From: Flavobacteriales bacterium
GTDB lineage: Bacteria; Bacteroidota; Bacteroidia; Flavobacteriales; BACL11
Assembly: GCA_002712715.1 (NCBI GenBank)
Contig: PAUF01000007.1
Coordinates: 514,134 to 578,133 of the forward strand
Reading direction: 5' to 3'
Length of the DNA: 64,000 nt
Shown here: one piece after another, positions 16,511 through 52,612 of the stretch
Layout of the letters: each line of letters opens with the position of its first letter
How positions within the stretch are numbered: position 1 is the first letter of the stretch
Translations under genes and position numbers: made by a program
The notes under the pieces: model-generated
Seen by the model: only the letters and a program-made list of their open reading frames with translations
What the model was told of the DNA's origin: nothing
The model's database searches: none

Positions 16511-17241
16511 CTCCTATTAAATTTTCTAAAAAAACTTTTGATTTTCATCTGCAAAACACCAAAAACTGCTTCAAAGAAAATACCACCACTCATTTTAGAC
16601 TCTCCCTCTGTTCTATCAGTAAAAATGACTGGAACTTCTATTATGTTAAATTGATATTTCCAAGCAGTGAACTTCATCTCTATTTGAAAAGCGTAACCTA
16701 CAAACTGAATTTTATCAAGATCGATCGTTGTCAAAACTTCTCTTCGATAACATTTGAAACCAGCAGTTGCATCATTTATAGGCATTCTAGTAATTAACTT
16801 AACATATTTTGAAGCAAAAAACGACATTAACAATCTCATCATGGGCCAATTTACTATATTAACTCCTTTAACATATCTTGAACCAATCGCTACATCCCCT
16901 CCCTGATTACTACACGCGTCATATAAACGTGTTAAATCTTTAGGGTCATGAGAAAAGTCAGCGTCCATCTCAAAAATATACTGATAATCTTTAATTAAAG
17001 CCCATTTAAATCCATGTATATAAGCAGTTCCCAGACCTAATTTACCTGTTCGTTGCTCTAAAAATAATTGTGATGCAAATTCTGATTGTAAACCCTTAAC
17101 TATATCAGCTGTTCCATCTGGGGAACCATCATCAACAATCAAAATATCAAACTTCTTTTCTAACGAAAAAATTTTTCTGATTATTTTATCAATATTTTCT
17201 TTCTCGTTATAGGTAGGTATTATAATTAAACTGTCTGACAT
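16507..17241 (-). CDS. Polyprenol-phosphate mannosyltransferase (GT2, Dpm1-like)
   Basis: The blocks IIIPTYNEKENI, VDDGSPDGT and MDADFSHDP are typical of the family. Confidence 0.8.
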   Translation of the reverse strand: MSDSLIIIPTYNEKENIDKIIRKIFSLEKKFDILIVDDGSPDGTADIVKGLQSEFASQLFLEQRTGKLGLGTAYIHGFKWALIKDYQYIFEMDADFSHDPKDLTRLYDACSNQGGDVAIGSRYVKGVNIVNWPMMRLLMSFFASKYVKLITRMPINDATAGFKCYRREVLTTIDLDKIQFVGYAFQIEMKFTAWKYQFNIIEVPVIFTDRTEGESKMSGGIFFEAVFGVLQMKIKSFFRKFNRR

Positions 17242-17401: not shown

Positions 17402-18313
17402 ATGAAAACAAATCTACTCTCTATATTTATTCTAATAACTTTTTTCTTGAATGCTCAAGATTGCTCCGATTTATTCATCTCAGAATATGTTGAAGGGCCT
17501 GCAAACAATAATGGTATAGAAATATATAATCCAACAAATAATTCAATAGACTTATCATCATACACTATTAATAGATATAGTAACGGATCAAGCTCAAGTC
17601 CAGAAATATTTTCACTCTCTGGATCTATTTCTGCTGGAGATGCAATCGTATTTGGTAATGGGCAATTAGATTCTGTTGATCTTGGAACTTATTGGTCACT
17701 TCCCGTAGATCCTATATTTTTTTCATATTTAGATTTTTCTTGTAATGGAGATTATGATGCAAACTCTACATTTTATTTCAACGGAGATGACGCAATGACA
17801 CTTGAAAAAAACAGCAACATTATTGATGTTTTCGGAAAAGTAGGAGAAGATCCTGGATCAGCATGGACTGATGACGCTACTGCAGGATATACAGATGCAA
17901 ATGGAGGAACATGGTGGACAAAGCGTCAAACCTTAGTAAGGAAATACAATATTAGAAAAGGAGTTAATCAAAATCCTATTGTTTTTAATCCAACTATTGA
18001 ATGGGACTCTCTTCCCGATGCTACATATAACCAAATGGGACAGCACAGTTGCGACTGTATTACATCATCTACTAATATTAACAATGAAGTTTCCTATTGG
18101 ATATATCAAAATACAAACGATCAATCCAATAGTATTAGGATTAATTCTAAAATAAGAATCAAAAACGTTGAAATATTTGACATTTTAGGAAATAGAATTG
18201 GCAATTATTCATCTAATAAAATTCCCACTATTAATCTGTCGAAAGGAATCTATTTATATAAAATTCAATTTGTTGATGGACGATTCGCCTCTAACAAACT
18301 AACTATTAAATAA
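17402..18313 (+). CDS. Secreted lamin-tail-domain (LTD) protein with a T9SS C-terminal sorting domain
   Basis: It has a signal peptide. The LTD-like block LFISEYVEGPANNNGIEIYNPT...IDLSSY resembles the N-termini of extracellular nucleases. The C-terminus GIYLYKIQFVDGRFASNKLTIK is CTD-like. Confidence 0.65.
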   Translation: MKTNLLSIFILITFFLNAQDCSDLFISEYVEGPANNNGIEIYNPTNNSIDLSSYTINRYSNGSSSSPEIFSLSGSISAGDAIVFGNGQLDSVDLGTYWSLPVDPIFFSYLDFSCNGDYDANSTFYFNGDDAMTLEKNSNIIDVFGKVGEDPGSAWTDDATAGYTDANGGTWWTKRQTLVRKYNIRKGVNQNPIVFNPTIEWDSLPDATYNQMGQHSCDCITSSTNINNEVSYWIYQNTNDQSNSIRINSKIRIKNVEIFDILGNRIGNYSSNKIPTINLSKGIYLYKIQFVDGRFASNKLTIK

Positions 18314-18335
18314 ATCCTAAAATTCATTTCAAAAA

Positions 18336-21158
18336 ATGAAACTAAAGATTGTAAGTTTTATAATAATTTCCTTGGTTTCAATAATCGCAACATCACAAAA
18401 TTTTTCTATAAGTGGAAGTGTAACAGACGGTCAAACTGGTGAAGCATTAATTGGAGCAACTGTAATCTACGGCAAAGGTAAAGGCACATCAACAGATTTA
18501 AATGGAAAATTTTCTTTTGATATCCAAAAAGGGTTTAGATCAATAATAGTTTCATATGTTGGATATAAACAATGGTCTAAATCAATTAATTTTGAAAATA
18601 ATGGCAAAATAAACATTAAATTATATCCTATAGAACTATCTGAAGTCAAAATAATTGCTGACATTGCAATAGATAGAGAAACACCTGTGGCTTTTTCTAA
18701 TATTTCTCTAAAGAAAGTTAGTGAAGAATTAGCCTCTCAAGACATTCCTATGATTTTAAATAGCACTCCAGGTGTATACGCGACACAAAGTGGAGGTGGT
18801 GATGGGGATGCTAGAATAACTATTAGAGGGTTTAACCAAAGAAATGTTGCTGTTATGATTGATGGAATTCCCGTGAATGATATGGAAAATGGTTGGGTAT
18901 ATTGGTCAAATTGGTCTGGTTTAGACGCGGTAACTTCTAGAATACAAGTACAAAGAGGGCTTGGAGCTTCTAAAATAGCAATACCATCAGTTGGCGGAAC
19001 TATGAATCTATTAACACAAGGAATAAGTAATAAAGAAAGTGGTTCTTTTAAACAAGAAATTGGATCATTTGGACGGATTAAAACATCCATTGGTTACAAC
19101 TCGGGAAAGTTCAATAATGGCTGGGGATTTACAATAGCGGGTTCATATAAAAAAGGCAATGGCTTTGTTCAAGAAACATGGACGGAAGGATATTTTTATT
19201 ATGGTAAATTACAAAAAGAAATAGGAAATCATACTCTTACATTTTCCGCAATGGGAGCTCCACAAAAACATGGTCAAAGAGGATACAAAAGTACCATATA
19301 TTCATATGATACAACTTATGCGAACAATTTGGGCATAGGTGATTCTTTAGACTATCGAGATTTTAACATAATTGATAAAGGAATTAACTATAATAAACAT
19401 TGGGGTTATATTGACAGATGGAAAATAGATGAACAAGGTGATACAATTCATAATGAATCGATATTAAATACAAGACAAAATTATTACCATAAACCCCAGT
19501 ATTCATTAAGACATCTCTGGAATGTAAATGAAAGACTGTTTGTTTCTAATATAGCATACCTATCAGTTGGTAACGGAGGAGGAACTAGAATTAGTGGAGG
19601 AAATACTAATAATTATGATAATGAAGGGCAATATAATTTACAAGAAGCTTATAACGGAAACATGCAAAATATTGATTTATTATATTCTGAAAATGAAAAT
19701 AAATCAAGTAGTTACTTAAGAAGTTCTATAAACAATCACTTTTGGTATGGATCATTATCTACTATTAATTATAATATTAATGAATCAATGAAAATATCAG
19801 GAGGAATTGATCTGAGAAAATATACTGGAGAACACTATGGAGAAGTTTACGATCTACTAGGAGGTGATTATATAATTGATGAATCAAATTCAACTCAATT
19901 ATCACAAATCAAGAAAGTAGGAGACATTGTAGGCTATCATAATGATGGACACGTAAAATGGATGGGAGGATTTAGCCAAATAGAATATAAAAATGATAAT
20001 CTTTCAACATTTATAAATTTATCCGGATCTAACTCAGGATATAAAAGACATGATTATTTTAATAAATTAGATTTAATACTTTTGGACACAACTATATCAG
20101 AAATATTAGGCACATCTGTAACAACTGAATATGTTATAGATGAAAACGGAGCTATTATTGGAGCAAATAAATCAATGATTGTAGATACTGTCGAATATAA
20201 TGGTCAAAAATATACAATGAACTCACCTGAAGCTAGACAAGATATTACTGATTGGAAATGGATACCAGGTTATACTATAAAATCTGGAATGAATTACAAT
20301 ATAGATGAATTAAATAATGTGTTTTTTAATCTTGGATATATTTCAAAAGCTCCTAGGTTCAATAATGTCTTTGACTACAACAACGAGCTCTTTCGAGATA
20401 TAAAAAATGAAAAAGTAAAAGCAATTGAAACAGGATATTCATTTCGATCCAAGATATTTTCATCCAACGTCAACGCCTATTATACATTGTGGGAAAATAA
20501 ACCTTCAAACGGTGGTGTAACTGTATTAATTGATGACGAAGCATTCAGATCTAATGTTAATGGGATGAATGCCTTACACAAAGGATTGGAAATTGATATC
20601 GCATATAAACCATTGAAAAACCTTCAAATCGAAGGACTACTATCTCTTGGAGATTGGAGATGGACATCAGCTGATACTGTTAGATTTTATGATGACAACA
20701 ATGAGATTGTAACTGATGATTTTGGAAATGAAGTTATAGCAGCGTTCGATGCTGAAGGTGTACATGTAGGTGATGCAGCGCAAACTCAATATGGGATTAG
20801 TTTAAGATATGAACCAAATAGAAAATCATACTTAAAATTAAGGGCAACTTATTTTGATGATTACTATTCTGATTTTGATCCATTAAGTTTGAATGGCAAT
20901 AACGCAGGAAGAGAAAGTTGGAAAATACCTGAGTATAGTCTTTTGGATTTACACGCAGGATACACAATAAATTTATATAAAGAAACTAAATTATCAATCA
21001 AAATAAGTGTTCTTAATTTACTGAACACAGTATATATTTCTGATGCTCAAAATAATGACCCATACAATGCTTCATTTCAAGATTTTGATGCTAAGTCCGC
21101 TGGTGTTTTCTTTGGGCTTGGTAGAAGATTTAATATAACAGCAAAAATAAACTTTTAA
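18336..21158 (+). CDS. TonB-dependent outer-membrane receptor (CarboxypepD_reg N-domain, no SusD partner)
   Basis: It has a signal peptide, the block ISGSVTDGQTGEALIGATV, a plug region, a 940-aa length and a barrel ending ...TAKINF. Confidence 0.85.
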   Translation: MKLKIVSFIIISLVSIIATSQNFSISGSVTDGQTGEALIGATVIYGKGKGTSTDLNGKFSFDIQKGFRSIIVSYVGYKQWSKSINFENNGKINIKLYPIELSEVKIIADIAIDRETPVAFSNISLKKVSEELASQDIPMILNSTPGVYATQSGGGDGDARITIRGFNQRNVAVMIDGIPVNDMENGWVYWSNWSGLDAVTSRIQVQRGLGASKIAIPSVGGTMNLLTQGISNKESGSFKQEIGSFGRIKTSIGYNSGKFNNGWGFTIAGSYKKGNGFVQETWTEGYFYYGKLQKEIGNHTLTFSAMGAPQKHGQRGYKSTIYSYDTTYANNLGIGDSLDYRDFNIIDKGINYNKHWGYIDRWKIDEQGDTIHNESILNTRQNYYHKPQYSLRHLWNVNERLFVSNIAYLSVGNGGGTRISGGNTNNYDNEGQYNLQEAYNGNMQNIDLLYSENENKSSSYLRSSINNHFWYGSLSTINYNINESMKISGGIDLRKYTGEHYGEVYDLLGGDYIIDESNSTQLSQIKKVGDIVGYHNDGHVKWMGGFSQIEYKNDNLSTFINLSGSNSGYKRHDYFNKLDLILLDTTISEILGTSVTTEYVIDENGAIIGANKSMIVDTVEYNGQKYTMNSPEARQDITDWKWIPGYTIKSGMNYNIDELNNVFFNLGYISKAPRFNNVFDYNNELFRDIKNEKVKAIETGYSFRSKIFSSNVNAYYTLWENKPSNGGVTVLIDDEAFRSNVNGMNALHKGLEIDIAYKPLKNLQIEGLLSLGDWRWTSADTVRFYDDNNEIVTDDFGNEVIAAFDAEGVHVGDAAQTQYGISLRYEPNRKSYLKLRATYFDDYYSDFDPLSLNGNNAGRESWKIPEYSLLDLHAGYTINLYKETKLSIKISVLNLLNTVYISDAQNNDPYNASFQDFDAKSAGVFFGLGRRFNITAKINF

Positions 21159-21162
21159 CAAC

Positions 21163-23325
21163 ATGATGAAAAAAACTTTAATACTAGTAATTTCAACTTT
21201 ATTTAACCTCTCAATAATTTCTCAAGACTTGTCCACTATACGTTTACAACCATTAGGAACAACAGTTACAGTAACGGGCATTGCTACAAATGGTTCTGAA
21301 CTTGGAGTAATTAGATATATAGAAGACGGAACAGCAGGCATAGCTCTATATGATTTATCTCAATCTACGGCATCACCAAATAATTATCTTACTAATATTT
21401 CCAGAGGAGACAGTATTACAATTACTGGTGAACTGGCTGATTATAACGGATTATTAGAAATTTATGTTTCAGTCCCTCCAACATTACATTCTACAAATAA
21501 TGCTTTACCGATACCTCAATTAGTTACACCCATCCAAATAGGAGAAAACACTGAAGCTGAACTTGTACAAATTGATAACGCTATTTTTAGTAATGGAGGA
21601 TCTATCTTTGCTGGCAACAGCACTCATGATTTTACTTCAAATGGAGAATCTGGCAGAGTCTATATTAAATCAGGCAGTCCTCTAGCAAACTCACTAATAC
21701 CAATGGGACCTGTTACAATTATTGGGATCTCTTCTCAATACATAAATCCAGCAAGTCCCAACATATTAACTAGCTACCAAATTATTCCAAGAGACTCCTC
21801 AGATATCATTCCTGGATCTCTAATTTTCACAACACCAGTAATGCAAACCAATATTACTTCAAATTCTTTTGACTTATCTTGGTCTGTTTCAGATTCATCT
21901 AATACTAATTGCAATTTCGGCACTAGTATAACAATGGGCAACGTCATCAATAATGCTGGAAACTCACTTTCGCATTCAATGACCTTGTCAGGACTACAAC
22001 CCGCTACCTTTTATTTTGTTCAATGCTATTCAATAAAAGGCATTGACACTGCATTTTCAAATGTGGGGATCTATAGTACTGCGTCAAATTCTACTGGAAA
22101 AATTAGGCCTTACTTCAATCATTCTGTGGATACATCATTTGCTATTATTTCAGGCACAAATGCGCAAAACATTACTACTTATTTCAATGATACAATAAAA
22201 GCATATATGGATTTAGCTCAATCAACTCTAGATATTTGCGTTTACAACGCTTCTGACGCAACTATCGCTAGCGCTATTAATGACGCTTACAATAGGGGTG
22301 TATCTGTAAGATATATAGCAGATGATGATGTAACTAATTCAATGATTGGATCGCTCAACACTAATATCCCTATAGTATATAGAAATTCATCTTTATCTGG
22401 AATCATGCATAACAAATTTGTAATTATAGATGCTAACAGTGTCAATAATTCATGGATATTAAGTGGATCTACAAATTGGACAAACCCTTCAAATCTTTTT
22501 AACGATTATAATAATTTAATATTTATTCAAGACCAAGCTTTAGCTAAAGCTTATACTATAGAATTTGAAGAAATGTGGTCTGGAATTTTTGGAAATCAAA
22601 AAGAAGACAATACCCCTCATAAATTCTCTATTGGAGGAAAAGATGTTGAATTATACTTCTCTCCATCAGATCAAACAACATCTAAAATAATCGATTTTAT
22701 TGATAAGGTTGATTACAGTTTGGAAATAGGTCTACTAAGTTTCACTAGAGATGATATTGGAGATAAAGTGATTGAAAAAGATAATCAATTTGGCGTAATT
22801 GTTAGAGGAATTATTGAACAGGAAAATGTTACTGGAAGTGAGTTTTCAAATTTAAATAGCGCAGGTGTCAATGTTAGATCTCATACGGGAGTCCAACATT
22901 CATTTCACCACAAATACGCAATAGCTGATGCTAATGTGTCAGCTGCTAATTCAGCAGTATTAACGGGATCTCATAATTGGAGCACAAATGCTGAAGTAAA
23001 TTCTGATGAAAATACACTTATAATTTATGATAATATAATTGCAAATATATATTTACAAGAATTTGAAAAAAGATGGTCTGAATTAAGTTCCACAAATTTA
23101 ACCAATGTGCATGTAAATATTTCAAGTTACCCTAATCCATCTAGAGGAAATGTGAATTTAGAATCAGACTTTGAAATACTTTATACTAATATTTATAATT
23201 ATGAAGGAAAATTGATCCGAAAAGAAAACACCAATACTTTTATAATTGATAAAGGAGGAATTTATTTTCTAAAATCATTTTTAAAAAATAACACTTTCTC
23301 ATTAAATAAAGTAATAATACAATAA
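21163..23325 (+). CDS. Secreted phospholipase-D/nuclease-family protein (2 HKD motifs) with an N-terminal OB-fold-like domain, an FN3-like domain and a T9SS CTD
   Basis: The HKD motifs are HNKFVIIDAN...GSTNWT and HHKYAIADAN...GSHNWS. The CTD begins SSYPNPSRGNVNL. Confidence 0.75.
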   Translation: MMKKTLILVISTLFNLSIISQDLSTIRLQPLGTTVTVTGIATNGSELGVIRYIEDGTAGIALYDLSQSTASPNNYLTNISRGDSITITGELADYNGLLEIYVSVPPTLHSTNNALPIPQLVTPIQIGENTEAELVQIDNAIFSNGGSIFAGNSTHDFTSNGESGRVYIKSGSPLANSLIPMGPVTIIGISSQYINPASPNILTSYQIIPRDSSDIIPGSLIFTTPVMQTNITSNSFDLSWSVSDSSNTNCNFGTSITMGNVINNAGNSLSHSMTLSGLQPATFYFVQCYSIKGIDTAFSNVGIYSTASNSTGKIRPYFNHSVDTSFAIISGTNAQNITTYFNDTIKAYMDLAQSTLDICVYNASDATIASAINDAYNRGVSVRYIADDDVTNSMIGSLNTNIPIVYRNSSLSGIMHNKFVIIDANSVNNSWILSGSTNWTNPSNLFNDYNNLIFIQDQALAKAYTIEFEEMWSGIFGNQKEDNTPHKFSIGGKDVELYFSPSDQTTSKIIDFIDKVDYSLEIGLLSFTRDDIGDKVIEKDNQFGVIVRGIIEQENVTGSEFSNLNSAGVNVRSHTGVQHSFHHKYAIADANVSAANSAVLTGSHNWSTNAEVNSDENTLIIYDNIIANIYLQEFEKRWSELSSTNLTNVHVNISSYPNPSRGNVNLESDFEILYTNIYNYEGKLIRKENTNTFIIDKGGIYFLKSFLKNNTFSLNKVIIQ

Positions 23326-23375: not shown

Positions 23376-23383
23376 TAGTTTTG
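23376..23383 (+). promoter_or_regulatory. -7 promoter box TAGTTTTG
   Basis: It is an exact TAnnTTTG match 18 nt upstream of ATG 23401. Confidence 0.45.
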
Positions 23384-28520: not shown

Positions 28521-28527
28521 TTTTTAT

Positions 28528-29565
28528 CTATTTCTTAAAATGTTTAATATTATTAATATCAGATGCAACCATTTCTTCACAAATATTAGATATTGAAACA
28601 TTAGGACTCCAACCAAGTAGTGATTTTGCTTTGGAATAATCGCCAATCAAAGCATCAACTTCTGCATGCCTAAATAATTTTTTATTTACTCTCACAATTA
28701 TTTTACCTGTATTAACATCTACCCCAACTTCCTCTACTCCCTTTCCTTCCCAAACAACATCAATGTCAACTATTTTAAAAGCCATCTCTGCAAATTGTCT
28801 TACAGTAAACGCCTCCCCTGTGGCTAAAACAAATGTATCTGGTTTATCATTTTGCATCATTCGAAACATTCCTTCTACATACTCGGGAGCGTACCCCCAA
28901 TCTCTACTAGCGTCCAAGTTACCTAATTCTAAATATTCTATTTCACCTTTTAATATTTTTGCAACACCTACAGAAATTTTCCTAGTAACAAATTCCATTC
29001 CTCTTAGAGGGGATTCGTGATTAAAAAGAATTCCACTACATGCAAAAATACCATAAGACTCTCGATAATTTGTTACCATCCAATGAGCATACAGTTTAGA
29101 AATACCATAAGGACTTCTGGGATAAAAAGGTGTAGATTCTTTTTGAGGAAACTCTAACGCTTTTCCATATAACTCTGATGTAGATGCTTGATAGAATTTA
29201 ATTTTCGTATCAACTAATCTTATTGCTTCTAACATATGTGTAACTCCAAGACCCGTAATCATACTAGTAGCAATTGGCTGATCAAATGATACATGTACAA
29301 AGCTTTGGGCGGCTAAATTATAAATCTCATCAGGATTAATACTTTGTACCATGCGAACTGTACTTAAAGGATCTATCAAATCATGCTCAACTAATTGCAA
29401 TCGGTCATGATTATTTATTTTCAAATATTCAATTCTCCAAAAATTCTGAGAACTTGTTCTTCTATACGCTCCATATACCATATATCCCTTATCTAACAAT
29501 AGCTTAGCTAAATAAGCTCCATCCTGTCCGGTAATTCCTGTAATTATTGCTTTTTTCATTATCAA
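28528..29565 (-). CDS. gmd: GDP-mannose 4,6-dehydratase family enzyme (may act on GDP-heptose)
   Basis: It has the blocks [27 protein letters not shown] and [16 protein letters not shown]. The start may be the third codon (MKKAIITG, 29559). Confidence 0.85.
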
Positions 29566-29590
29566 TTATGGTTAAGAATGGTAAAGATAC

Positions 29591-30097: not shown

Positions 30098-30098
30098 A

Positions 30099-30671: not shown

Positions 30672-30713
30672 ATTAAATGATATTCAAGTTACATTGCTAA
30701 TATATACATATTA

Positions 30714-31856: not shown

Positions 31857-31857
31857 A

Positions 31858-45479: not shown

Positions 45480-45487
45480 CAAAACTA
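45480..45487 (-). promoter_or_regulatory. -7 promoter box (TAGTTTTG on the minus strand) for gcvH-tonB
   Basis: The plus strand reads CAAAACTA, 43 nt upstream of ATG 45437. It overlaps the sprA stop. Confidence 0.35.
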
Positions 45488-48400
45488 ACCCGCTAAAGTA
45501 AATCGCAGACTGAAACCAGCGTTAGTTATCGCTCCTGGATAACTTGTAGAAATAAATGGATTCGTTATAACTTTATCATAAAACAACTTGAAATTTAACC
45601 TAGAACTAACAACATAATCTGTCGAAAATTTTATACTAATAGATTGTTGGCCCATCGTAATTTGCTCTACGTCCTCTATCACTTTTCTAATAACTGTTTT
45701 ATTATTTCTAATATTTAAATCTAATTTTATATCAAGGTCACTTGAAATTGTTTTCGAGGAACCCGCTGCTTTATATTTAAACTTCAAATCTTTAATCCTA
45801 TACCCAGTCCCAATCACATATTCACTTCCGTTAATTTCTGTAATCTGATTATTGGACATAGATAAATTTAAAGTTCTATTTTTCTTAATCTCTAATTTTG
45901 TCATTAAACTATTTTTCCAAGTTAAATCTAACTTAATCAAAGGACTAAATTGTTCATTAATCGTTACCTGCCCAATCTCGTATTTTGAAAAGAAGTTCCC
46001 AGTATTTTCATTAATATTGGATGACCAACCATCATTCTCAATATAATCTAAACTAGAAGTAAATGATCCAACAGAATAAGTGCTTCTGTAAGCGTGAGCT
46101 AAAGTAAATGTTTTAAAATATTTCTTAATGAATTTCAACCTCATTAATCCATCATAATTAACTCGCCAGTTTGGTAATGGTAATTTAGGCATGCTGCTTA
46201 AGGATGATGAAATTGGATTCTTTCCACCATATGCGGCTAAAAAGGCAGGTATTAAAACATCAGGTGAAGCTAATCCATATCCTTGAGGAAAACCAGTAGA
46301 ATCATATAATCCAGAAAAATTTGGATTCGCGGATGCAAGTCGCTTCGCTATCTCATTCCTATAATTTCTAAAATCCTGGAATGATTGTGAACTGAAATTT
46401 TCATTATCTCTCATAAAAGCAGTCTTCCATGAAATAAATGATATACTATAACTTCCATTCTGAATCGGACTTACTGAATTAAACATATTATCACTTTCAG
46501 ACCATCTAAAATATTCCTGCTGATTAAATGAATTTGTCTTATTAGCCGTAAGTTCGATTCTAAATTTCTTAATTGGCTCTACAGTACTTCTAATAATTAA
46601 ATTAGACGATGAAGTTTTGCTAAATAATGTGTTAATATTCTGATTTTGTGATAGCCATCCATTGGTAGATGCTTGATATCGAATATCTTTTTGACTTCCA
46701 AGCACAAAGGGTATACCAGGAGCCATCTCTGCCCAATTTTGACCAAAAAAATTCGACTCCGGCATAAATCCAGGAATAAAAGTACCTTCATTTCTTGTTA
46801 AATTTACTGAAATATTTTTTACAGACAAAAAAACATTCAATAATGATCTAGCTAATTTATACTGATCTTTTTTCTTATTTTCCTTGGGATTCTCTTCGGA
46901 TCTAATTCTTGAGGTTCTTCTGTTATTATTTCTCTTATTAGAAGAATTTAAAACTTTCTTAAAATAAGGCACTTTATTGTATAAAGTATTCATATTAATC
47001 TGTCCATTATGCTGAATATTATTTGAATTTTGAATTGTATTCCCAAAATCTTGCATTGATAAAGCTGCACTATTCCAATCATAATTTGCATTATATCGAG
47101 TTGTTAAACTTAAAAAATTCACTAGTGGGATTTTGCTAAAAGGCCATTGATAATTTAAAGCCAAATCATGATGATATAATGTTGGCCTTCCTAAATTCCA
47201 GAAATTTTTCCATATAGTATCTCTTTTCTCTTTAAATAAAGGGTCTTGCCTATCTATTCTACCAACTGGTTCATCAATACTTGATTGGTTTCTGACAGAA
47301 AAATCTAACTTTAAAGTTCTTGTAATATCATATTTAAGATCATATGATCTGTTCCAATTAAAATACTTATTGTAAGTAGGAGAAATTATCATATAGGAAT
47401 TATTAATATTTCTAAGTAACGTCTCATTATACATCCTTTCAATATCAGTACGATATGAAAAAGATTTTGGAATTGCATAAAAATTAATATCCTTGATTAA
47501 TCTAGCGTAAGGACCTTTTCCTATTTTTAATTTTGAAAATGGTTTAATATTTTTAGGCCTCGAACTATAATTATATGTAATCGCTCCCCTATAATTTTTT
47601 GTCCTATTATATTCAGTATTAATATTTCGAAAAAATGTTTCATTATTAGAATAAGAAATTGTAAAATTCTCTAAATCGTAAATTTTTGGCTTCTTTATCT
47701 CTTCACCTTTCTTTTGCACTTTAGTTTTTCTAATATTGGTTAGATTAATACTTTTTCTACTAACGTAATCTTGGGAAACAAATCTAAATGAATCTCTTTC
47801 TGCTTTATTTTCAAGAGAAGAGAGAGTTGTCTTAAATAAAATATCAGGATCTAATGGATTATACTGTGGGTTACTAATCTGTTCGGAAACCCCAATATAC
47901 AAAGGAATTCTAACTCCATAATCATCAGCAAAAAACTTCCCTAACTCCAAATTAGAAGACATGTCATATTGAAAATCATTAGATTTTTGTCTCTCATTTA
48001 CCTTTTTCTCAATTGAACCAAATCCAACAGTACTCATATTTCCTGCTAAAGTGACAGTTCCAAAATCTGCCATCTTAGTAGTTACTCTAGCATTGGCTGC
48101 CCATCCACCATATTCATCAAAATCAGCTAAACGCAATTCGTTTACCCAAATCTCTCCGCACTTTGCGTTCCCATCATCATCTGATGACGTAGATAGTTTT
48201 TTAGGATTCTTGACTCCTATCATTATTGTTTTTATTCTACTAAGATTAGGGTTGCCAACTACAGTAATTTTATCTCCATTAGATAGATAAGTAATAAAGG
48301 GAGTCGTTGCATCATTAGTGTTAAAATTTCTTTGCTGTTTAGCAAATTGAAATTGCTCAAATTCAATATCTATATTATTTTCAACTGGCCACACTTCGTT

Positions 48401-51400
48401 TCTAGAACTCTCACCATGATTAGTAACTTTTAAAGGCAACTCATATTCATAATAATTCGACGTAAAGTCAGTACCTAATCTAATAAAGCATGATAAATCA
48501 CCATCTAACAAATCATCCTCAGCTCCCTCAGCATGTACAAACATCTTAAGTCTTTTATATGTTCTTACATCAAGATCTGAAGTTTTGTATGCTGCTCGCG
48601 CGTCCCCATCATTTAAATTACATACTTTTAATACTAAAGATTGTTCATTATCTCTACGTAATGTAGTAGTAGTATTGTCAATATTTTGTTCTATACCTGG
48701 AGGCAGTACATAATTAATTGGTATTCTCTGTCCATTTTCCTCAATGTTAACAGACGTCACATCAAATAAAGTTTCATCTGTTTCATCATTTGGTATATAT
48801 TCTCCTGGCTCTTGCAGACTAAAATTATACCTTCTCCATTCACCTCTCACTAACTCCATAGTAGCGAATCGACATACTATAGGCTCATTAAAATCTGTCA
48901 ATATCATTCTCATAAATCTTATAGATTTAAAATCTTGAATACTTCCAACCACCTTTTCTGGATTATATACAGGAACTCTAAATTGATACCATTTAATTAT
49001 TCGATCATCACCGTTTTTTGTAGTAACATTAGTTTCTAATACATCAGAAATGTTAGGGTTACTTATATTTAATTCTGATGGAGATATTGATATTTTATAT
49101 TGAAAATAACTTTCTGACTCACCAAGAGTATTGTCACGATTAATGTCCTCAGAGTTTGGAATGGTAGTTGCAGATGTAGAATATGATTCATTAGATTGTT
49201 CAGTTGTTGCAGAATTTCCATCAAGTCCATTATATCTTTTATATCTTGTTAAAATTGATGTTTCCTGATTGTCAAAATCAGTACTTCTAAAATATAGGTA
49301 ATTATCACCAGATGGATCCTCAATCGCGTTTTGATATGCTAATGAGGAAACTCCTAAAGCAGGATTATTAACTATTTTTTGTATATAAATACTATCAAAA
49401 AATAATTTTTCATCTTCATCACTCAATCCATCAATCCCAACATCTTGATATTGTCTTGAGAGTGGGTCATTATCAAAAGCTTCTACTATTGAATAGTTTG
49501 TTGGGACTCGCCCCCATGCTGTAGTATCAACATCTATTATATTATCATCGATTGGTAATCCGTTTTCAAAACTTTTATATCCATCTTTTAATATGTCTTC
49601 TGAAACATTTCCTAAGTGAATATACATTTCTCCTCCCTCATGATTAATATTACCATCATCAGGATTAAACGGATCCATCATCCAAAACTCTATAAATTCT
49701 ATATTAGCTGTTTCAAAATCATTGGTTTCTATCTTTCTCATAATACCACCCCAATTTTTAGCAGGGTTCATCAATTCTCCAGTAAACGTCAATTGATCAA
49801 CATTATAATTATATGGACCTCTTTCATTTGGATAATATGCTAAGTCTAATATTGAAAGATTAGTAATTTGACTCCCATACTGAGGGTCCTTATTTGGAAA
49901 TACTTCCTTTTCTAATATTTCTCGACTATAATGATAAGACTGTTGAGCAATTTGATTGCCATTTGGTAAATCAATTAAATTATCAACTCCAGGAGGAGTC
50001 ACAGAGGAAGTTCTAAAAAAAACTGATGGATCTATTGTGTACCAAGAAATTAAACCTCTACGGAAGCCAGTAGATAAATCATTATTCAGATTCGAATTTT
50101 CAAATATTGAATTTTGTCCCTGAGGAATTGACGCAATATTCCATGATCTAACATTTTTAATATCAATAGAACTCCTACTAGCTTCAAAATCATCGATATA
50201 GGAGACACCTCCATCACCATTATCAATTCTCCTATGGTGTCCTGGTATTAATCTAGCTATCTCAGCGTTAGCTATTACTCTAGATTTTGTTTTAGTTTCA
50301 ATTAAAGGCAATTTGTCTATTAACTTAGTAATTAAAGGAGATTCTGATTGATAAGTCCCATCAATACCGAGAATTGTATTTGATATAGGTTCATCACCGG
50401 CATTTATTTTATTTACATATGGAGCCTCAGACAATCTTAACAATGTACCTCCAAGAATAAAGTCTTTATTTATTTTATAATCAGCGTGAAAACCCAGCAA
50501 ACTTTTATCCTGTATACCAAACATTGCATTATTCTCTAGTGAAATTTTAATTGGAATACCCGAATTAAGAATGCCTTCATCAATAATTGTAACTCTTCCC
50601 AACATATAATCAACCGTATAATGCTGATTTTCAATTAGCTTTTGAGACCCTGCTGAAACCGTAACAGACCCTTCCGGGACATTCATAGCATTTAAAGAAA
50701 TCTCTGACCCAGCTGAAGATTTATAAGATCCTTTAAGTCTAAACTTATTTAACTGAGGATATTGCCTAGCTATTGTAAGGGTTGAATCATAAAGATAATC
50801 ATAAACATATTTATTCGCGATATTATTATCATTGAATTTTTCTCTAAGATCTGATCCAAATGGCTCTAATGTTGGAAATATCACTCGACCATTTGAAGAT
50901 TTAGCGGTAACTCCTTCAATAAAATCAAATATTCCATCAGAAACATCATTCTGCTGCTGATTTAAATTATCAAGATTTAATAATTTGATTAATGGAACTC
51001 CATCAATATTTCCCTCAGGAATATAATTAGTCAATCCACCAGATACCTCAGTGTTTTCATAAATAACGTCTAATATAAACTCATTCGCACTCATCTGATA
51101 CGCTCCTAACGCATAAATATTCTTCATCATTAAATCCCAATTAATTAGTTTCGGAGAAAATGTGGTGCCTTTAATTAATTTGAGTATTAATGATTGTGGA
51201 GCGGTAGGACCATTATTAGTTAGCTCACCTACTTGGAAGGTTTCATTACCTATAGTATATTGAAATGCTACCGCAAGCACTTCATCATTGTTTAAAGCTT
51301 GATTCAATGATATATATCCAAGCTGAGGGTGTAAAGTATACTCAGATTCATTTAACTTCCTGGCTCTTTCTAACTTTTCATAGTCTTGTCCAGCAATGAA

Positions 51401-52612
51401 ATTAATAGAAGACAAAGGTCCTAACTCAGAATTTACTTGGCTTATATCTCTAATTCCTGGATATTGCGATAATAATTTTTGATACATATCATTAGCCTGA
51501 TCATTATCTGGAAATGGAGAAGTAAATGAAGTGGTAAAGTTATTGTTTTGAATATTGCCCTGAGTTTCTCCAAGATCCATAAACGACAAAATATTTCTAC
51601 TATTTTCTGTAACACCTGTTTTATTAGTGATCCACACCTCTACTCTAGTTATATTTATTGAAGAATTTATAAATGGTAAATTTTCTAAAGCTGAATTATA
51701 GTTATCTTTAAAATAGTGAGATAAGAAAAAATGCTTATTTGCTTCGTACTGATCTGCATAAATATCAAAATCAGTAGTTTGCGCTCCTCCTGTAACTTCA
51801 ACTTCAGATGTTGTAGACTTTTGCTGAGAAAGAATACCTGTAATAGTTGTTTTTCCAAACTGAAGTTTCGTTTTTAATCCAAATAAACTTTGACTTCCAG
51901 TAATTAAGGTTCCATTAAGAGGCAAACTAACATTTCCGATTTCTATTTTCTTTATAATCTCATCTTCAAATCCTGTATACTCTAATTTCATGTCATTTTC
52001 AAAATTAAAGGTAGCTTCGGTATTGAAATTAGTAGTTAATTTTAGCTTTTCTCCAATTTTACCAATTACATTCATCTGAATTTTTTCTTGAAAATCAAAA
52101 GACGCTGTCCTTCTTTGTTCAACAGTATAGTTTGGATTGTCTAAACGATTAACTCGAACTGAAAAAATTAATTCAGCAGAACCTTGGGGTCTAATATCTA
52201 CAGTATTACCACCAAAAACCTTATCAAATGCATCACTACCAATAAACAATTTAGGTCTTCCATAATTGCGATCAACTAAGCCTCTCCTTTGTTCTGATTG
52301 TGATTTCCAATAATTAGACTGTGAATTTGAAGTTTGATAATTTAGATATTCACTAAACGACATAACCGTTTTATTAAAAATATCTGTATTACCTATTCGG
52401 GAATAGATAATATATTTTCCAGTTTTAGGATTATATACAACCTCTTTCTGAAAATTATTTGGTAGTTCCATGTATAAGCCTCCATATTGAGTTGAACTAA
52501 ATGGAAACGCAAGATGGTTTTTTGTAGTATCATCAACAGTCATTGCATGCAATGAGCTACTTAAGAAAAAGATGCTTAAAAAAACAGGTATATAAAAAAT
52601 ATTGCTTTTCAA
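45485..52612 (-). CDS. sprA: T9SS translocon / cell-surface protein SprA
   Basis: The 2375-aa protein has a signal peptide and beta-rich composition to the C-terminus. Its size and its gcvH/ruvA neighbourhood are typical of Flavobacteriia sprA. Confidence 0.85.
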   Translation of the reverse strand: MKSNIFYIPVFLSIFFLSSSLHAMTVDDTTKNHLAFPFSSTQYGGLYMELPNNFQKEVVYNPKTGKYIIYSRIGNTDIFNKTVMSFSEYLNYQTSNSQSNYWKSQSEQRRGLVDRNYGRPKLFIGSDAFDKVFGGNTVDIRPQGSAELIFSVRVNRLDNPNYTVEQRRTASFDFQEKIQMNVIGKIGEKLKLTTNFNTEATFNFENDMKLEYTGFEDEIIKKIEIGNVSLPLNGTLITGSQSLFGLKTKLQFGKTTITGILSQQKSTTSEVEVTGGAQTTDFDIYADQYEANKHFFLSHYFKDNYNSALENLPFINSSINITRVEVWITNKTGVTENSRNILSFMDLGETQGNIQNNNFTTSFTSPFPDNDQANDMYQKLLSQYPGIRDISQVNSELGPLSSINFIAGQDYEKLERARKLNESEYTLHPQLGYISLNQALNNDEVLAVAFQYTIGNETFQVGELTNNGPTAPQSLILKLIKGTTFSPKLINWDLMMKNIYALGAYQMSANEFILDVIYENTEVSGGLTNYIPEGNIDGVPLIKLLNLDNLNQQQNDVSDGIFDFIEGVTAKSSNGRVIFPTLEPFGSDLREKFNDNNIANKYVYDYLYDSTLTIARQYPQLNKFRLKGSYKSSAGSEISLNAMNVPEGSVTVSAGSQKLIENQHYTVDYMLGRVTIIDEGILNSGIPIKISLENNAMFGIQDKSLLGFHADYKINKDFILGGTLLRLSEAPYVNKINAGDEPISNTILGIDGTYQSESPLITKLIDKLPLIETKTKSRVIANAEIARLIPGHHRRIDNGDGGVSYIDDFEASRSSIDIKNVRSWNIASIPQGQNSIFENSNLNNDLSTGFRRGLISWYTIDPSVFFRTSSVTPPGVDNLIDLPNGNQIAQQSYHYSREILEKEVFPNKDPQYGSQITNLSILDLAYYPNERGPYNYNVDQLTFTGELMNPAKNWGGIMRKIETNDFETANIEFIEFWMMDPFNPDDGNINHEGGEMYIHLGNVSEDILKDGYKSFENGLPIDDNIIDVDTTAWGRVPTNYSIVEAFDNDPLSRQYQDVGIDGLSDEDEKLFFDSIYIQKIVNNPALGVSSLAYQNAIEDPSGDNYLYFRSTDFDNQETSILTRYKRYNGLDGNSATTEQSNESYSTSATTIPNSEDINRDNTLGESESYFQYKISISPSELNISNPNISDVLETNVTTKNGDDRIIKWYQFRVPVYNPEKVVGSIQDFKSIRFMRMILTDFNEPIVCRFATMELVRGEWRRYNFSLQEPGEYIPNDETDETLFDVTSVNIEENGQRIPINYVLPPGIEQNIDNTTTTLRRDNEQSLVLKVCNLNDGDARAAYKTSDLDVRTYKRLKMFVHAEGAEDDLLDGDLSCFIRLGTDFTSNYYEYELPLKVTNHGESSRNEVWPVENNIDIEFEQFQFAKQQRNFNTNDATTPFITYLSNGDKITVVGNPNLSRIKTIMIGVKNPKKLSTSSDDDGNAKCGEIWVNELRLADFDEYGGWAANARVTTKMADFGTVTLAGNMSTVGFGSIEKKVNERQKSNDFQYDMSSNLELGKFFADDYGVRIPLYIGVSEQISNPQYNPLDPDILFKTTLSSLENKAERDSFRFVSQDYVSRKSINLTNIRKTKVQKKGEEIKKPKIYDLENFTISYSNNETFFRNINTEYNRTKNYRGAITYNYSSRPKNIKPFSKLKIGKGPYARLIKDINFYAIPKSFSYRTDIERMYNETLLRNINNSYMIISPTYNKYFNWNRSYDLKYDITRTLKLDFSVRNQSSIDEPVGRIDRQDPLFKEKRDTIWKNFWNLGRPTLYHHDLALNYQWPFSKIPLVNFLSLTTRYNANYDWNSAALSMQDFGNTIQNSNNIQHNGQINMNTLYNKVPYFKKVLNSSNKRNNNRRTSRIRSEENPKENKKKDQYKLARSLLNVFLSVKNISVNLTRNEGTFIPGFMPESNFFGQNWAEMAPGIPFVLGSQKDIRYQASTNGWLSQNQNINTLFSKTSSSNLIIRSTVEPIKKFRIELTANKTNSFNQQEYFRWSESDNMFNSVSPIQNGSYSISFISWKTAFMRDNENFSSQSFQDFRNYRNEIAKRLASANPNFSGLYDSTGFPQGYGLASPDVLIPAFLAAYGGKNPISSSLSSMPKLPLPNWRVNYDGLMRLKFIKKYFKTFTLAHAYRSTYSVGSFTSSLDYIENDGWSSNINENTGNFFSKYEIGQVTINEQFSPLIKLDLTWKNSLMTKLEIKKNRTLNLSMSNNQITEINGSEYVIGTGYRIKDLKFKYKAAGSSKTISSDLDIKLDLNIRNNKTVIRKVIEDVEQITMGQQSISIKFSTDYVVSSRLNFKLFYDKVITNPFISTSYPGAITNAGFSLRFTLAG

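What the first reader, a model, noticed from the sequence alone, without database searches (positions are those of the whole stretch)
17402..23325. LTD protein, TonB-dependent receptor and OB-fold/double-HKD T9SS protein: a candidate extracellular-DNA capture and uptake locus
Three consecutive plus-strand genes are separated by only 22 and 4 nt.
- **Gene 1** is a T9SS-secreted protein whose N-domain (LFISEYVEG..NGIEIYNPT..IDLSSY) is the lamin-tail-type domain found at the front of bacterial extracellular nucleases.
- **Gene 2** is a SusD-less TonB-dependent transporter.
- **Gene 3** is a T9SS-secreted protein. It has an OB-fold-like N-domain, an FN3-like domain and two HKD motifs, as in PLD-superfamily nucleases such as Nuc.

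This looks like a polysaccharide-utilisation-locus-style module aimed at a nucleic-acid or phosphodiester substrate. It could harvest phosphorus or nucleotides from dissolved DNA.
Basis: inference. Interest (0 to 1): 0.6.

Follow-up and report, generated by a model that had tools for sequence, protein, structure and literature searches.

The report
Surface DNA-cutting and uptake gene trio
Three adjacent genes of a marine Flavobacteriales bacterium most likely form a cell-surface kit that binds extracellular DNA, cuts it and imports the pieces. It is an undescribed variant, widespread in the ocean, of the DNA-utilisation and DNA-uptake loci recently found in gut Bacteroides and in Riemerella.

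Summary
Three plus-strand ORFs lie at 17402-18313, 18336-21158 and 21163-23325, separated by 22 and 4 nt.

- **Gene 1** is a lamin-tail-domain (LTD) protein with a T9SS sorting tail.
- **Gene 2** is a TonB-dependent transporter with no SusD partner.
- **Gene 3** has a DUF5689 domain, an FN3 domain, two intact HKD halves of the Nuc/Zucchini/NucT type, and a T9SS tail.

This is the family of DdbD in the Bacteroides ddb DNA-utilisation locus, and of the Riemerella protein needed for natural transformation.

Comparative evidence strongly supports a nucleic-acid substrate:

- In 80 transporter-anchored metagenome loci, an LTD gene lies directly upstream in 58 of 61 testable cases.
- The downstream gene is a T9SS nuclease in at least 51 of 55 testable cases. 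It is either DUF5689-PLD (21) or an Endonuclease I protein (30), so the nuclease domain is swapped in the same slot.
- Some single proteins fuse LTD, DUF5689 and PLD.
- The transporter's barrel profile matches transporters that sit next to stand-alone DUF5689 proteins, but not other transporters.

The PLD protein also occurs without a transporter in 36 of 64 testable genomes.

No activity has been measured. Whether the module serves nutrition or transformation is unresolved. Verdict: a new variant of a known kind; interest 0.55.

The parts
17402..18313 (+). Gene 1: a secreted, non-catalytic LTD protein with a T9SS tail. It is the near-constant upstream partner of this transporter clade.
   Evidence: ORF. 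Pfam LTD and NCBIfam TIGR04183. An orthologue lies directly upstream of the transporter in 58 of 61 testable loci.
17453..17839 (+). Lamin tail domain (residues 18-146 by Pfam). The conserved region runs on to the HxCDC motif near residue 219. Cys21 and Cys219 are invariant.
   Evidence: E 3.6e-14. (ExeM N-terminus, E 5e-19). (alignment A4, invariant columns).
18101..18310 (+). T9SS type A C-terminal sorting domain of gene 1 (residues 234-303).
   Evidence: TIGR04183, 27.0 bits against a cut-off of 23. In one search, the family profile's best solved match is the sorting domain of F. johnsoniae NucA bound in the T9SS translocon (8glk_D).
18336..21158 (+). Gene 2: TonB-dependent outer-membrane transporter with no SusD partner.
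   Evidence: No SusD-type neighbour.
18408..18626 (+). N-terminal carboxypeptidase-regulatory-like extension (residues 25-97).
   Evidence: PF13715, E 1e-15. (matches the N-terminal extensions of SusC homologues 8aa4 and 9hfj).
18675..18998 (+). Plug domain (residues 114-221).
   Evidence: PF07715, E 2.9e-13.
18999..21155 (+). Divergent barrel region (about residues 222-940). Pfam barrel models and solved transporters do not recognise it. It is related to the barrels of transporters that sit next to stand-alone DUF5689 proteins.
   Evidence: only the N-terminal extension and plug match. (profile hits L016, L035 and L053 over the barrel; the C-terminal piece scores E about 1e-22).
21163..23325 (+). 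Gene 3: secreted protein with DUF5689, FN3, a double-HKD nuclease and a T9SS tail.
   Evidence: AlphaFold model with pLDDT 90.8.
21223..21822 (+). DUF5689 domain (about residues 21-220). In the model it forms two consecutive all-beta modules. It is the predicted DNA-binding part.
   Evidence: PF18942, E 7.6e-10; weak OB-fold hits. (family members carry 1-4 copies, with OB-fold hits at 1e-5). (strands 34-110 and 134-217).
21826..22077 (+). FN3-like beta sandwich (about residues 222-305), probably a spacer.
   Evidence: fn3, 23.4 bits, below the cut-off. (orthologues pass)..
22102..22587 (+). First PLD half. Its HKD motif HNKFVIID lies at nt 22408-22431.
22618..23088 (+). Second PLD half. Its HKD motif HHKYAIAD lies at nt 22906-22929.
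   Evidence: best solved relatives are Zucchini/MitoPLD at E 2e-14, and Nuc..
23119..23322 (+). T9SS type A C-terminal sorting domain of gene 3 (about residues 653-720).
   Evidence: TIGR04183, 24.4 bits against a cut-off of 23. (orthologues score 32-38 bits). (beta sandwich).
23376..23383 (+). Perfect Bacteroidota -7 promoter box (TAGTTTTG), 17 nt before the next gene, a DEAD-box helicase. It marks the 3' limit of the three-gene unit.
   Evidence: No such box lies in the gaps between genes 1 and 2 or between genes 2 and 3.
45485..52612 (-). SprA, the T9SS translocon. It shows the organism has the secretion system that genes 1 and 3 need.
   Evidence: PF14349 SprA_N, E 8e-201.

Best explanation
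**What it is.** The three genes form one transcription unit. It encodes a cell-surface module that captures extracellular nucleic acid, cuts it and imports the fragments.

**Gene 3.**
- It is exported through Sec and the T9SS, and is probably tethered to the cell surface by its C-terminus.
- Its DUF5689 domain holds DNA.
- Its two HKD halves fold into one Nuc-like active site that cleaves the phosphodiester backbone.

**Gene 2.** A TonB-energised transporter of the clade that partners with DUF5689 proteins. It carries the fragments into the periplasm.

**Gene 1.** A surface-tethered, non-catalytic LTD protein. It is the near-constant partner of this transporter clade, so it most likely acts as the transporter's substrate-binding accessory or lid.

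**Likely use.** In this free-living marine Flavobacteriales bacterium, the most likely purpose is scavenging nucleotides, phosphorus and nitrogen from dissolved DNA, and perhaps RNA.

**Shown here:**
- domain content and intact catalytic motifs;
- conserved gene order across orders of Bacteroidota;
- nuclease-domain swapping in the same gene slot;
- domain fusions;
- the family link to DdbD / RA0C_RS04920.

**Inferred, not shown:** the substrate, surface tethering, which protein caps the transporter, the size of the imported product, the physiological purpose and the regulation.
For: **1. Domains.**

**2. The catalytic domain resembles nucleases, not lipases.**
- The best NCBIfam match is nuclease NucT (E 5e-20).
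- The best solved sequence relatives are Zucchini/MitoPLD, Nuc and NucT.
- In the model, Zucchini is the closest by identity (29%, TM 0.79), and the ssDNA exonuclease PLD3 is among the top two-HKD matches.
- The HKD residues are invariant.

**3. The DUF5689 link.**
- DUF5689 is the family of DdbD, the predicted DNA-binding partner of transporter DdbC in the experimentally required ddbABCDEF locus (PMC12478041).
- It is also the family of RA0C_RS04920, which is essential for Riemerella transformation together with the adjacent transporter RA0C_RS04915 (PMC8459023).

**4. Transporter-anchored loci**.
- LTD upstream in 58 of 61.
- Downstream gene: 21 DUF5689-PLD and 30 Endonuclease I plus T9SS tail, out of 55.

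**5. PLD-anchored genomes**.
- There are 19 full triads, including one with permuted gene order (L051).
- They span at least five orders, with unrelated flanking genes.

**6. A ddbBCD-like arrangement.** L016, L035 and L053 carry an EEP nuclease, a transporter, a stand-alone DUF5689 protein and a DUF5689-PLD protein.

**7. Transporter clade.** The gene 2 profile matches those transporters across the barrel (E 1e-57 to 1e-63). It matches unrelated transporters only in the N-terminal extension and plug.

**8. Domain fusions.** Single proteins carry LTD, DUF5689, FN3, two PLD halves and a T9SS tail in L054, L063, L070 and L074.

**9. Secretion system.** The T9SS translocon SprA is encoded in the same window.

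**10. Operon signals.** The gaps are 22 and 4 nt, and the next promoter box lies after gene 3.
Against: - No biochemical or expression data exist for any member of this variant.
- The PLD protein has no adjacent transporter in 36 of 64 testable genomes. It can therefore work as a free-standing nuclease, and its DUF5689 domain need not dock on a transporter.
- Fourteen of the 30 Endonuclease I variants have no detectable DUF5689. DUF5689 is therefore not required by this transporter clade.
- Gene 2 could not be compared directly with DdbC or RA0C_RS04915.
- No phosphatase, nucleotidase or nucleoside transporter lies nearby, so the downstream pathway is not visible.
- In B. thetaiotaomicron, DNA was a poor sole source of carbon, nitrogen or phosphorus (PMC12478041).
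- The nearest solved relative, MitoPLD, has also been reported to hydrolyse cardiolipin (deposited name).
Confidence: 0.7

Rival explanations
1. The module is the outer-membrane stage of natural transformation, as in Riemerella anatipestifer. The LTD and DUF5689 proteins would capture DNA. The transporter would carry long DNA into the periplasm for ComEC. The PLD nuclease would process the incoming DNA, as NucT is proposed to do in Helicobacter.
For: - The only genetic phenotype known for a transporter plus DUF5689 pair in Flavobacteriales is complete loss of transformation (PMC8459023, read).
- The best NCBIfam match of the gene 3 catalytic domain is NucT.
- The stand-alone DUF5689 protein of L016 matches the Riemerella-named lipoprotein family NF052645 over its whole length, and it carries a choice-of-anchor J domain.
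Against: - No ComEC, DprA, ComF or helix-hairpin-helix gene lies within 10 kb. Riemerella ComEC is four genes from its transporter.
- Gene 3 lacks the DUF5017 / choice-of-anchor J part of RA0C_RS04920.
- A surface endonuclease, either PLD or the non-specific Endonuclease I, is present in at least 51 of 55 loci. That fits degradation better than preserving long DNA.
- The ddb locus of the same family serves catabolism, and gut Bacteroidales showed no reliable DNA uptake (PMC12478041).
Confidence: 0.17
2. Gene 3 is a secreted nuclease used for something other than uptake, such as remodelling or escaping extracellular-DNA matrices or biofilms, or competing with other microbes. The neighbouring transporter would import an unrelated substrate.
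For: - The PLD protein stands alone in 36 of 64 testable genomes.
- Secreted nucleases of Bacteroidota are known in biofilm and host-defence settings. The ddbF homologue is cited for bile-dependent biofilm formation in PMC12478041.
Against: - From the transporter's side, a T9SS nuclease gene lies directly downstream in at least 51 of 55 loci despite a change of nuclease family.
- The gap is 4 nt here.
- The transporter clade is the one that pairs with DUF5689 proteins.
- LTD-DUF5689-PLD fusions tie the parts together.
Confidence: 0.08
3. The double-HKD domain acts on a substrate that is not a nucleic acid, such as phospholipid, polyphosphate or a glycerophosphodiester polymer. The module would then import that product.
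For: - The PLD superfamily includes lipases, phospholipid synthases and polyphosphate kinase.
- The best whole-domain Foldseek matches include a phospholipase D, phosphatidylserine synthase and PPK1.
Against: - Those matches have only 12-16% identity. The nuclease members reach 19-29% and lead every sequence-based search.
- The domain is fused to DUF5689, a predicted nucleic-acid-binding domain.
- It is interchangeable in the same locus position with Endonuclease I.
Confidence: 0.05

Closest known systems
ddbABCDEF DNA-utilisation locus of Bacteroides thetaiotaomicron (PMC12478041, 2025)
   Same: - PUL-like logic, with a nucleic acid as the polymer.
- A TonB-dependent transporter followed immediately by a gene encoding DUF5689, the DdbD family.
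- Secreted nucleases in the same locus.
- Three related loci found here (L016, L035, L053) combine a ddbBCD-like core with a gene 3 homologue.
   Different: - Three genes instead of six.
- DUF5689 is fused to the nuclease rather than being a separate protein.
- The nuclease is of the PLD (HKD) type.
- Surface proteins use T9SS sorting tails, whereas the ddb surface proteins DdbA, DdbE and DdbF use SPII lipoprotein signals.
- An LTD protein is the constant partner.
- No periplasmic nuclease is encoded in the locus.
- The host is a marine Flavobacteriales bacterium rather than a gut Bacteroidales.
- Identity to DdbC was not measured.
Riemerella anatipestifer natural-transformation pair RA0C_RS04915 / RA0C_RS04920 (PMC8459023, 2021)
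   Same: - An outer-membrane protein that domain searches recognise only by its carboxypeptidase-regulatory-like domain. Gene 2 also shows a Plug domain.
- It is followed by a DUF5689 protein in one operon.
- The organism is also in the order Flavobacteriales.
   Different: - RA0C_RS04920 carries DUF5017 / choice-of-anchor J and no nuclease.
- Gene 3 carries FN3 plus a PLD nuclease and has no DUF5017.
- No competence genes lie near the window's locus.
- The function there is transformation.
Nuc (Salmonella plasmid), NucT (Helicobacter) and Zucchini/MitoPLD: PLD-family nucleases
   Same: - The HxK(x)4D catalytic motif.
- The PLDc_2 fold.
- The highest sequence similarity of any characterised proteins.
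   Different: - Those enzymes have one HKD per chain and act as homodimers.
- Gene 3 has two HKD halves in one chain, preceded by DUF5689 and FN3 and followed by a T9SS tail.
ExeM/NucH extracellular nucleases (Shewanella ExeM, PMC6085458)
   Same: - An N-terminal LTD next to OB-type nucleic-acid-binding regions and a nuclease domain.
- The gene 1 N-terminus aligns to the ExeM N-terminus.
- Some relatives of gene 3 carry LTD in the same chain.
   Different: - ExeM uses an EEP nuclease domain and a GlyGly-CTERM anchor, and it is not paired with a transporter.
- Here the LTD is a separate, non-catalytic T9SS protein.
SusC/SusD polysaccharide-utilisation loci
   Same: - A surface enzyme, a surface binding protein and a TonB-dependent transporter with a SusC-like N-terminal extension.
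- All encoded side by side.
   Different: - No SusD.
- The barrel is not recognisably SusC-like.
- The enzyme is a nuclease.
- Anchoring is by T9SS tails rather than lipidation.
Flavobacterium johnsoniae NucA (Fjoh_4723), an Endonuclease I T9SS cargo seen in the SprA translocon (PMC10994853, PDB 8GLK)
   Same: - It is the same kind of protein as the Endonuclease I alternative found downstream of gene 2-type transporters.
- Its sorting domain is the best solved match to the gene 1 family tail.
   Different: - Its genomic context could not be retrieved.
- It is therefore unknown whether it sits in such a triad.

Membership tests
PLD superfamily, nuclease branch (Nuc/NucT/Zucchini) | Two HxK(x)4D motifs forming one active site | tested here: met
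   HNKFVIID and HHKYAIAD. H416, K418, D423, H582 and K584 are invariant and D589 is nearly invariant in 55 homologues. Two PLDc_2 stretches, E 6e-36.
PLD superfamily, nuclease branch (Nuc/NucT/Zucchini) | Closer to nuclease members than to lipases or synthases | tested here: met
   The significant NCBIfam matches are NucT models. The best solved sequences are Zucchini, Nuc and NucT. In Foldseek, nucleases show 19-29% identity against 12-16% for lipases, synthases and PPK.
PLD superfamily, nuclease branch (Nuc/NucT/Zucchini) | Nuclease activity | not testable with these tools
   Needs a recombinant protein assay.
T9SS type A cargo (genes 1 and 3) | C-terminal sorting domain passing TIGR04183 | tested here: met
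   Gene 1 scores 27.0 bits against a cut-off of 23. The gene 3 tail scanned alone scores 24.4 against 23. Pfam Por_Secre_tail falls below its cut-off in both, but orthologues pass it.
T9SS type A cargo (genes 1 and 3) | T9SS machinery in the same genome | tested here: met
   SprA lies at 45485-52612.
T9SS type A cargo (genes 1 and 3) | N-terminal Sec signal peptide | tested here: inconclusive
   Hydrophobic N-termini followed by Gln (LNA/QD and IIS/QD) are visible in the sequence. No signal-peptide predictor was run.
TonB-dependent transporter (gene 2) | Plug domain | tested here: met
   PF07715, E 2.9e-13.
TonB-dependent transporter (gene 2) | 22-strand beta barrel | tested here: inconclusive
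   No Pfam barrel model and no solved transporter matches beyond residue about 287. About 720 residues follow the plug and are conserved among orthologues. No structure was predicted.
SusC/SusD polysaccharide-utilisation locus | Adjacent SusD-family lipoprotein gene | tested here: not met
   No SusD-type Pfam family appears on any gene within 10 kb.
ddb-type DNA-utilisation locus | DUF5689 protein encoded next to the transporter | tested here: met
   The N-terminal 240 residues of gene 3 hit PF18942 at 39.5 bits against a cut-off of 28.6. The gene starts 4 nt after the transporter. Here DUF5689 is a fused domain, not a separate protein.
ddb-type DNA-utilisation locus | Transporter homologous to DdbC | tested here: inconclusive
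   Indirect only. The gene 2 family profile matches transporters that precede stand-alone DUF5689 proteins across the barrel, at E 1e-57 to 1e-63. The DdbC and RA0C_RS04915 sequences were not obtainable.
ddb-type DNA-utilisation locus | Secreted nuclease(s) in the locus | tested here: met
   Gene 3, by homology only.
ddb-type DNA-utilisation locus | Locus required for depletion of exogenous DNA | not testable with these tools
   Needs genetics in a cultured carrier.
Riemerella-type transformation uptake pair | DUF5689 partner also carrying DUF5017 / choice-of-anchor J | tested here: not met
   No such hit in gene 3. These domains are present in L016 and in a protein upstream of the L045 triad.
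Riemerella-type transformation uptake pair | Competence genes (ComEC, DprA, ComF) in the genome or nearby | tested here: inconclusive
   None within 10 kb. The rest of the genome is not available.
Lamin tail domain proteins (gene 1) | Match to PF00932 above its cut-off | tested here: met
   53.5 bits against a cut-off of 34.3.

The most novel reading that the evidence does not exclude
The gene 2 clade of TonB-dependent transporters, together with its LTD partner, could be a pilus-independent gate that brings long DNA across the outer membrane. This would make abundant marine Flavobacteriales and many other Bacteroidota naturally transformable. The tethered PLD or Endonuclease I nuclease would generate the entry ends. 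The same three-gene module would then serve both gene transfer and feeding in the ocean.
Probability: 0.15. Interest if true: 0.8.

Novelty: new variant of a known kind. Interest (0 to 1): 0.55.

Why it matters
**Ecological gap.** Dissolved DNA is a large pool of organic phosphorus and nitrogen in the sea, and Flavobacteriia are major polymer degraders. How they take up DNA has not been described.

**What this module offers.**
- It is compact and easy to recognise: an LTD protein, a transporter, and a T9SS nuclease of PLD or Endonuclease I type.
- The gene 3 family occurs in at least 556 species genomes. More than 584 metagenome stretches encode relatives of the transporter.
- It therefore provides a marker for DNA foraging in metagenomes and metatranscriptomes.

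**What it extends.**
- It takes the DNA-utilisation-locus concept, established in 2025 for gut Bacteroides, to environmental Bacteroidota.
- It shows that such loci can be built from T9SS-tethered parts rather than lipoproteins.
- It points to the bacterial lamin tail domain, whose role is unknown, as a candidate transporter accessory for nucleic acids.
- It offers a natural experiment in nuclease-domain swapping.

**Open question it makes testable.** Is TonB-dependent DNA uptake in Bacteroidota used for food, for transformation, or for both?

Tried and rejected
- **Sigma-70 promoter and terminator scan.** It found 42 sites against 40 expected, which is uninformative for an AT-rich Bacteroidota genome. 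I replaced it with a search for the Bacteroidota -7 box.
- **First AlphaFold run.** It used a shallow alignment of 63-85% identical sequences and gave pLDDT 63, with residues 118-220 unmodelled. I discarded it in favour of the diverse-alignment model, pLDDT 90.8.
- **Whole-protein hmmscan of gene 3.** It did not list DUF5689. The domain scanned alone passes the cut-off.
- **F. johnsoniae NucA.** I tried to retrieve it through the 73-residue sorting-domain sequence from PDB 8GLK, to see whether it sits in a triad. The search returned only an unrelated 89-residue fragment.
- **Solved LTD relatives of gene 1.** Sequence and profile searches found none. Only the sorting tail matches.
- **My own 'LTD' profile.** It was built from full-length gene 1 orthologues, so it also hits T9SS tails. 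I disregarded LTD labels on Endonuclease I proteins unless Pfam confirmed them. Pfam did not confirm any.
- **Literature searches.** They found no description of an LTD-transporter-PLD locus.
- **Horizontal acquisition.** I considered and rejected it. GC content (0.30-0.33) matches the flanks, and the upstream synteny is shared with relatives.

Full report
**1.

The window contains three plus-strand ORFs at exactly the reported coordinates: 17402-18313 (303 aa), 18336-21158 (940 aa) and 21163-23325 (720 aa). They are separated by 22 and 4 nt. GC content across them (0.30-0.33) matches the flanks.

The flanking genes are housekeeping:
- Upstream and divergent: a GT2 glycosyltransferase and a dihydroorotase-like amidohydrolase.
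- Downstream: a DEAD-box helicase.

The helicase has its own perfect Bacteroidota -7 box (TAGTTTTG, nt 23376). No such box lies in the two internal gaps. The sequence comes from a marine Flavobacteriales MAG; the identical protein is named CMP51_04255.

**2. Domain content**

*Gene 1*
- Pfam LTD on residues 18-146 (E 3.6e-14).
- The N-terminus aligns to the N-terminus of the extracellular nuclease ExeM (E 5e-19).
- It has a T9SS type A tail above the NCBIfam cut-off and no catalytic domain.
- Orthologues keep two invariant cysteines, C21 and C219.

*Gene 2*
- It has the carboxypeptidase-regulatory-like N-terminal extension and the Plug of a TonB-dependent transporter.
- Neither Pfam nor any solved transporter recognises its barrel.

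*Gene 3*
- Two PLDc_2 halves with intact HKD motifs, invariant in 55 homologues.
- An FN3-like sandwich and a T9SS tail.
- An N-terminal region which, scanned alone, is Pfam DUF5689 above its cut-off.

A high-confidence model (pLDDT 90.8, pTM 0.77) shows, in order:
- two all-beta modules;
- an FN3-like sandwich;
- two PLD halves;
- a C-terminal sandwich.

The T9SS translocon gene sprA lies in the same window.

**3. What kind of PLD**

- The best NCBIfam match is nuclease NucT.
- The best solved sequence relatives are Zucchini/MitoPLD, Nuc and NucT.
- In Foldseek, the two-HKD enzymes cover the whole catalytic region at 12-16% identity. These are a phospholipase D, the ssDNA exonuclease PLD3, vaccinia F13, PPK1 and phosphatidylserine synthase.
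- The single-HKD nucleases match each half at 19-29% identity, with TM up to 0.79.

The domain is therefore a fused pseudo-dimer of the nuclease branch. This is an inference from similarity, not a measurement.

**4. The key literature link**

DUF5689 appears in only two works in the searchable literature.
- **Riemerella anatipestifer.** The adjacent genes RA0C_RS04915 and RA0C_RS04920 are both essential for natural transformation (PMC8459023). The first is an outer-membrane protein annotated only by its carboxypeptidase-regulatory-like domain. The second carries DUF5689 plus DUF5017.
- **Bacteroides thetaiotaomicron.** The ddbABCDEF locus is required for depletion of exogenous DNA. DdbC is a TonB-dependent transporter. 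DdbD (DUF5689) is predicted to cap it and resembles the DNA-binding HIN domain of p202 (PMC12478041).

Gene 3 therefore carries the signature domain of these systems, fused to a nuclease and encoded 4 nt behind a transporter.

**5. How large and how uniform is the gene 3 family**

- An exhaustive search found 7116 clusters at E<=1e-3 and 706 at E<=1e-30.
- The best 150 are nearly all full-length matches of 34-53% identity.
- Longer members carry two to four DUF5689 copies.

**6. Is the triad conserved? Anchoring on gene 3**

A scan of one genome per species found at least 556 carriers. The best 80 span Flavobacteriales, Chryseobacterium, Saprospiraceae, Chitinophagales, Bacteroidales, Cytophagales, Thermonema and Ignavibacteriales.

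Of 64 loci with enough upstream sequence:
- 28 have the gene directly behind a transporter. Nineteen of these are full LTD-transporter-PLD triads, one with permuted order.
- 36 have no adjacent transporter.

The association is phylogenetically structured. Among nearest-neighbour pairs, 22 are linked-linked, 24 unlinked-unlinked and 8 mixed. Relatives of 63-66% identity keep the triad while the downstream genes differ.

**7. Is the triad conserved? Anchoring on the transporter**

This is the more telling direction. It used 80 metagenome loci with transporters 40-73% identical to gene 2.
- An LTD gene is directly upstream in 58 of 61 testable cases.
- The gene directly downstream, in 55 testable cases, is:
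  - a DUF5689-FN3-PLD-tail protein in 21;
  - an Endonuclease I (PF04231) protein of about 710-800 aa with a T9SS tail in 30, some of which also carry DUF5689;
  - unclear in 4.

Two unrelated nuclease folds thus occupy the same slot behind the same transporter. This is strong evidence that the PLD domain acts on nucleic acid, and that nuclease and transporter work together.

**8. Links between the parts**

- L016, L035 and L053 carry an EEP-family nuclease, a transporter, a stand-alone DUF5689 protein (E 1e-56 to 1e-133) and a gene 3 homologue. This is a ddbBCD-like core plus the PLD protein.
- The stand-alone DUF5689 protein of L016 matches, over its whole length, the NCBIfam family named after Riemerella gene M949_1556. 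It also contains a choice-of-anchor J domain, the annotation of RA0C_RS04920.
- A profile of gene 2 orthologues matches those three transporters across the barrel (E 1e-57 to 1e-63; C-terminal piece about 1e-22). It matches unrelated transporters in the same loci only in the N-terminal extension and plug.
- Single proteins in Ignavibacteria-type and Bacteroidota genomes combine LTD, DUF5689 (one or two copies), FN3, two PLD halves and a T9SS tail.
- An LTD-DUF5017-DUF5689-tail protein precedes the triad in L045.

**9. Mechanism proposed**

1. Genes 1 and 3 are exported by Sec and the T9SS, and probably remain tethered to the surface by their C-termini.
2. Gene 3 binds DNA through DUF5689 and cleaves it at a single Nuc-like site formed by its two halves.
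3. Gene 2 imports the fragments using TonB energy.

Which protein caps the transporter is open. The LTD gene accompanies this transporter clade in 95% of loci, whereas DUF5689 is undetectable in 14 of the 30 Endonuclease I variants. The LTD protein is therefore the better candidate for the accessory or lid. This is an inference. In ExeM, the LTD aids DNA degradation in vitro but is not essential for it, and its role is unknown (PMC6085458).

The purpose is unresolved:
- **For feeding:** the endonuclease is always present, no competence genes lie nearby, and the catabolic ddb locus is a precedent. A flavobacterium (Lutibacter) also incorporated 13C-labelled DNA in marine sediment (PMC8289736).
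- **For transformation:** the Riemerella phenotype, and the similarity to NucT.

**10. Comparison and novelty**

The locus works like a ddb DNA-utilisation locus and shares its signature domain. It differs in five ways:
- it is minimal, with three genes;
- it uses T9SS tails rather than lipoprotein anchors;
- it fuses DUF5689 to a PLD nuclease;
- it has an LTD partner;
- it comes from a marine free-living lineage.

No paper in the library describes this arrangement. I rate it a new variant of a known kind.

**11. Limits**

- No activity, localisation or expression data exist.
- DdbC and RA0C_RS04915 could not be compared directly.
- Gene calls in the related loci are my own simple ORF calls.
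- Counts come from the best 80 loci of each scan, not from a census.

Noticed in passing
window 45485-52612 (-): A 2375-aa ORF is SprA, the T9SS translocon (PF14349, E 8e-201). It lies 22 kb from the two T9SS cargo genes of the finding.
   Followed up: partly
window 15179-17241 (-); also L004-L009, L031, L041, L043, L048, L070: A GT2 glycosyltransferase plus a dihydroorotase-like amidohydrolase lies next to the triad or the PLD gene in Flavobacteriales. In Bacteroidales (L041, L043) the pair lies on the other side of the triad. The GT2 cluster occurs in 13 loci and the amidohydrolase cluster in 10. This may be ancestral synteny or a link to pyrimidine metabolism.
   Followed up: no
L097, L103, L104, L106, L112, L119, L130, L134, L140, L151 (gene directly after the transporter): These are large Endonuclease I proteins (about 710-800 aa) with T9SS tails. 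The nuclease domain sits at the N-terminus in some and near the C-terminus in others. Several have roughly 400 N-terminal residues with only weak Ig-like (ASH/Cep192) hits.
   Followed up: partly
L063:9086-12817, L070:8933-12196, L054:8825-12244, L074:9062-12799: In Ignavibacteria-type and Bacteroidota MAGs, single proteins of 1088-1245 aa combine LTD, DUF5689 (one or two copies), FN3, two PLD halves and a T9SS tail. L063 also has a Big_5 domain. L074 was labelled only by my own profiles; the other three were confirmed by Pfam. None has an adjacent transporter.
   Followed up: partly
L065, L066, L069, L078, L083: These are shorter gene 3 homologues (about 530-565 aa) that start at the FN3 domain and lack DUF5689. 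Two of them (L065, L069) still lie directly behind a transporter.
   Followed up: no
window 25825-45055 (-): A long minus-strand cluster of glycosyltransferases, epimerases, a sulfotransferase and SIS/HAD sugar-phosphate enzymes, probably for surface polysaccharide synthesis (Pfam labels, which cover only part of it). It includes a 528-aa ORF with no Pfam hit (25825-27411).
   Followed up: no
window 54140-56011 and 56614-58266 (+): A further T9SS cargo (Omp28-like domain plus Por_Secre_tail), followed by a DUF6029 protein (E 1e-172).
   Followed up: no
window 4554-7240 (+): A kynureninase-like gene lies next to an FAD-dependent monooxygenase gene, with an aldehyde dehydrogenase at 378-1847. 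This suggests a tryptophan/kynurenine degradation segment.
   Followed up: no
window 17402-17470, 18336-18400, 21163-21230: In all three proteins the hydrophobic leader is followed by Gln (LNA-QD, ATS-QN, IIS-QD). This fits the Bacteroidota habit of signal peptidase I substrates beginning with Gln. That habit is from my own knowledge and was not tested here.
   Followed up: no
window 21163-23322 (technical): hmmscan of the whole 720-aa protein did not report DUF5689 even at E<=0.1. The first 240 residues scanned alone score 39.5 bits. Whole-protein scans can therefore miss this domain.
   Followed up: yes
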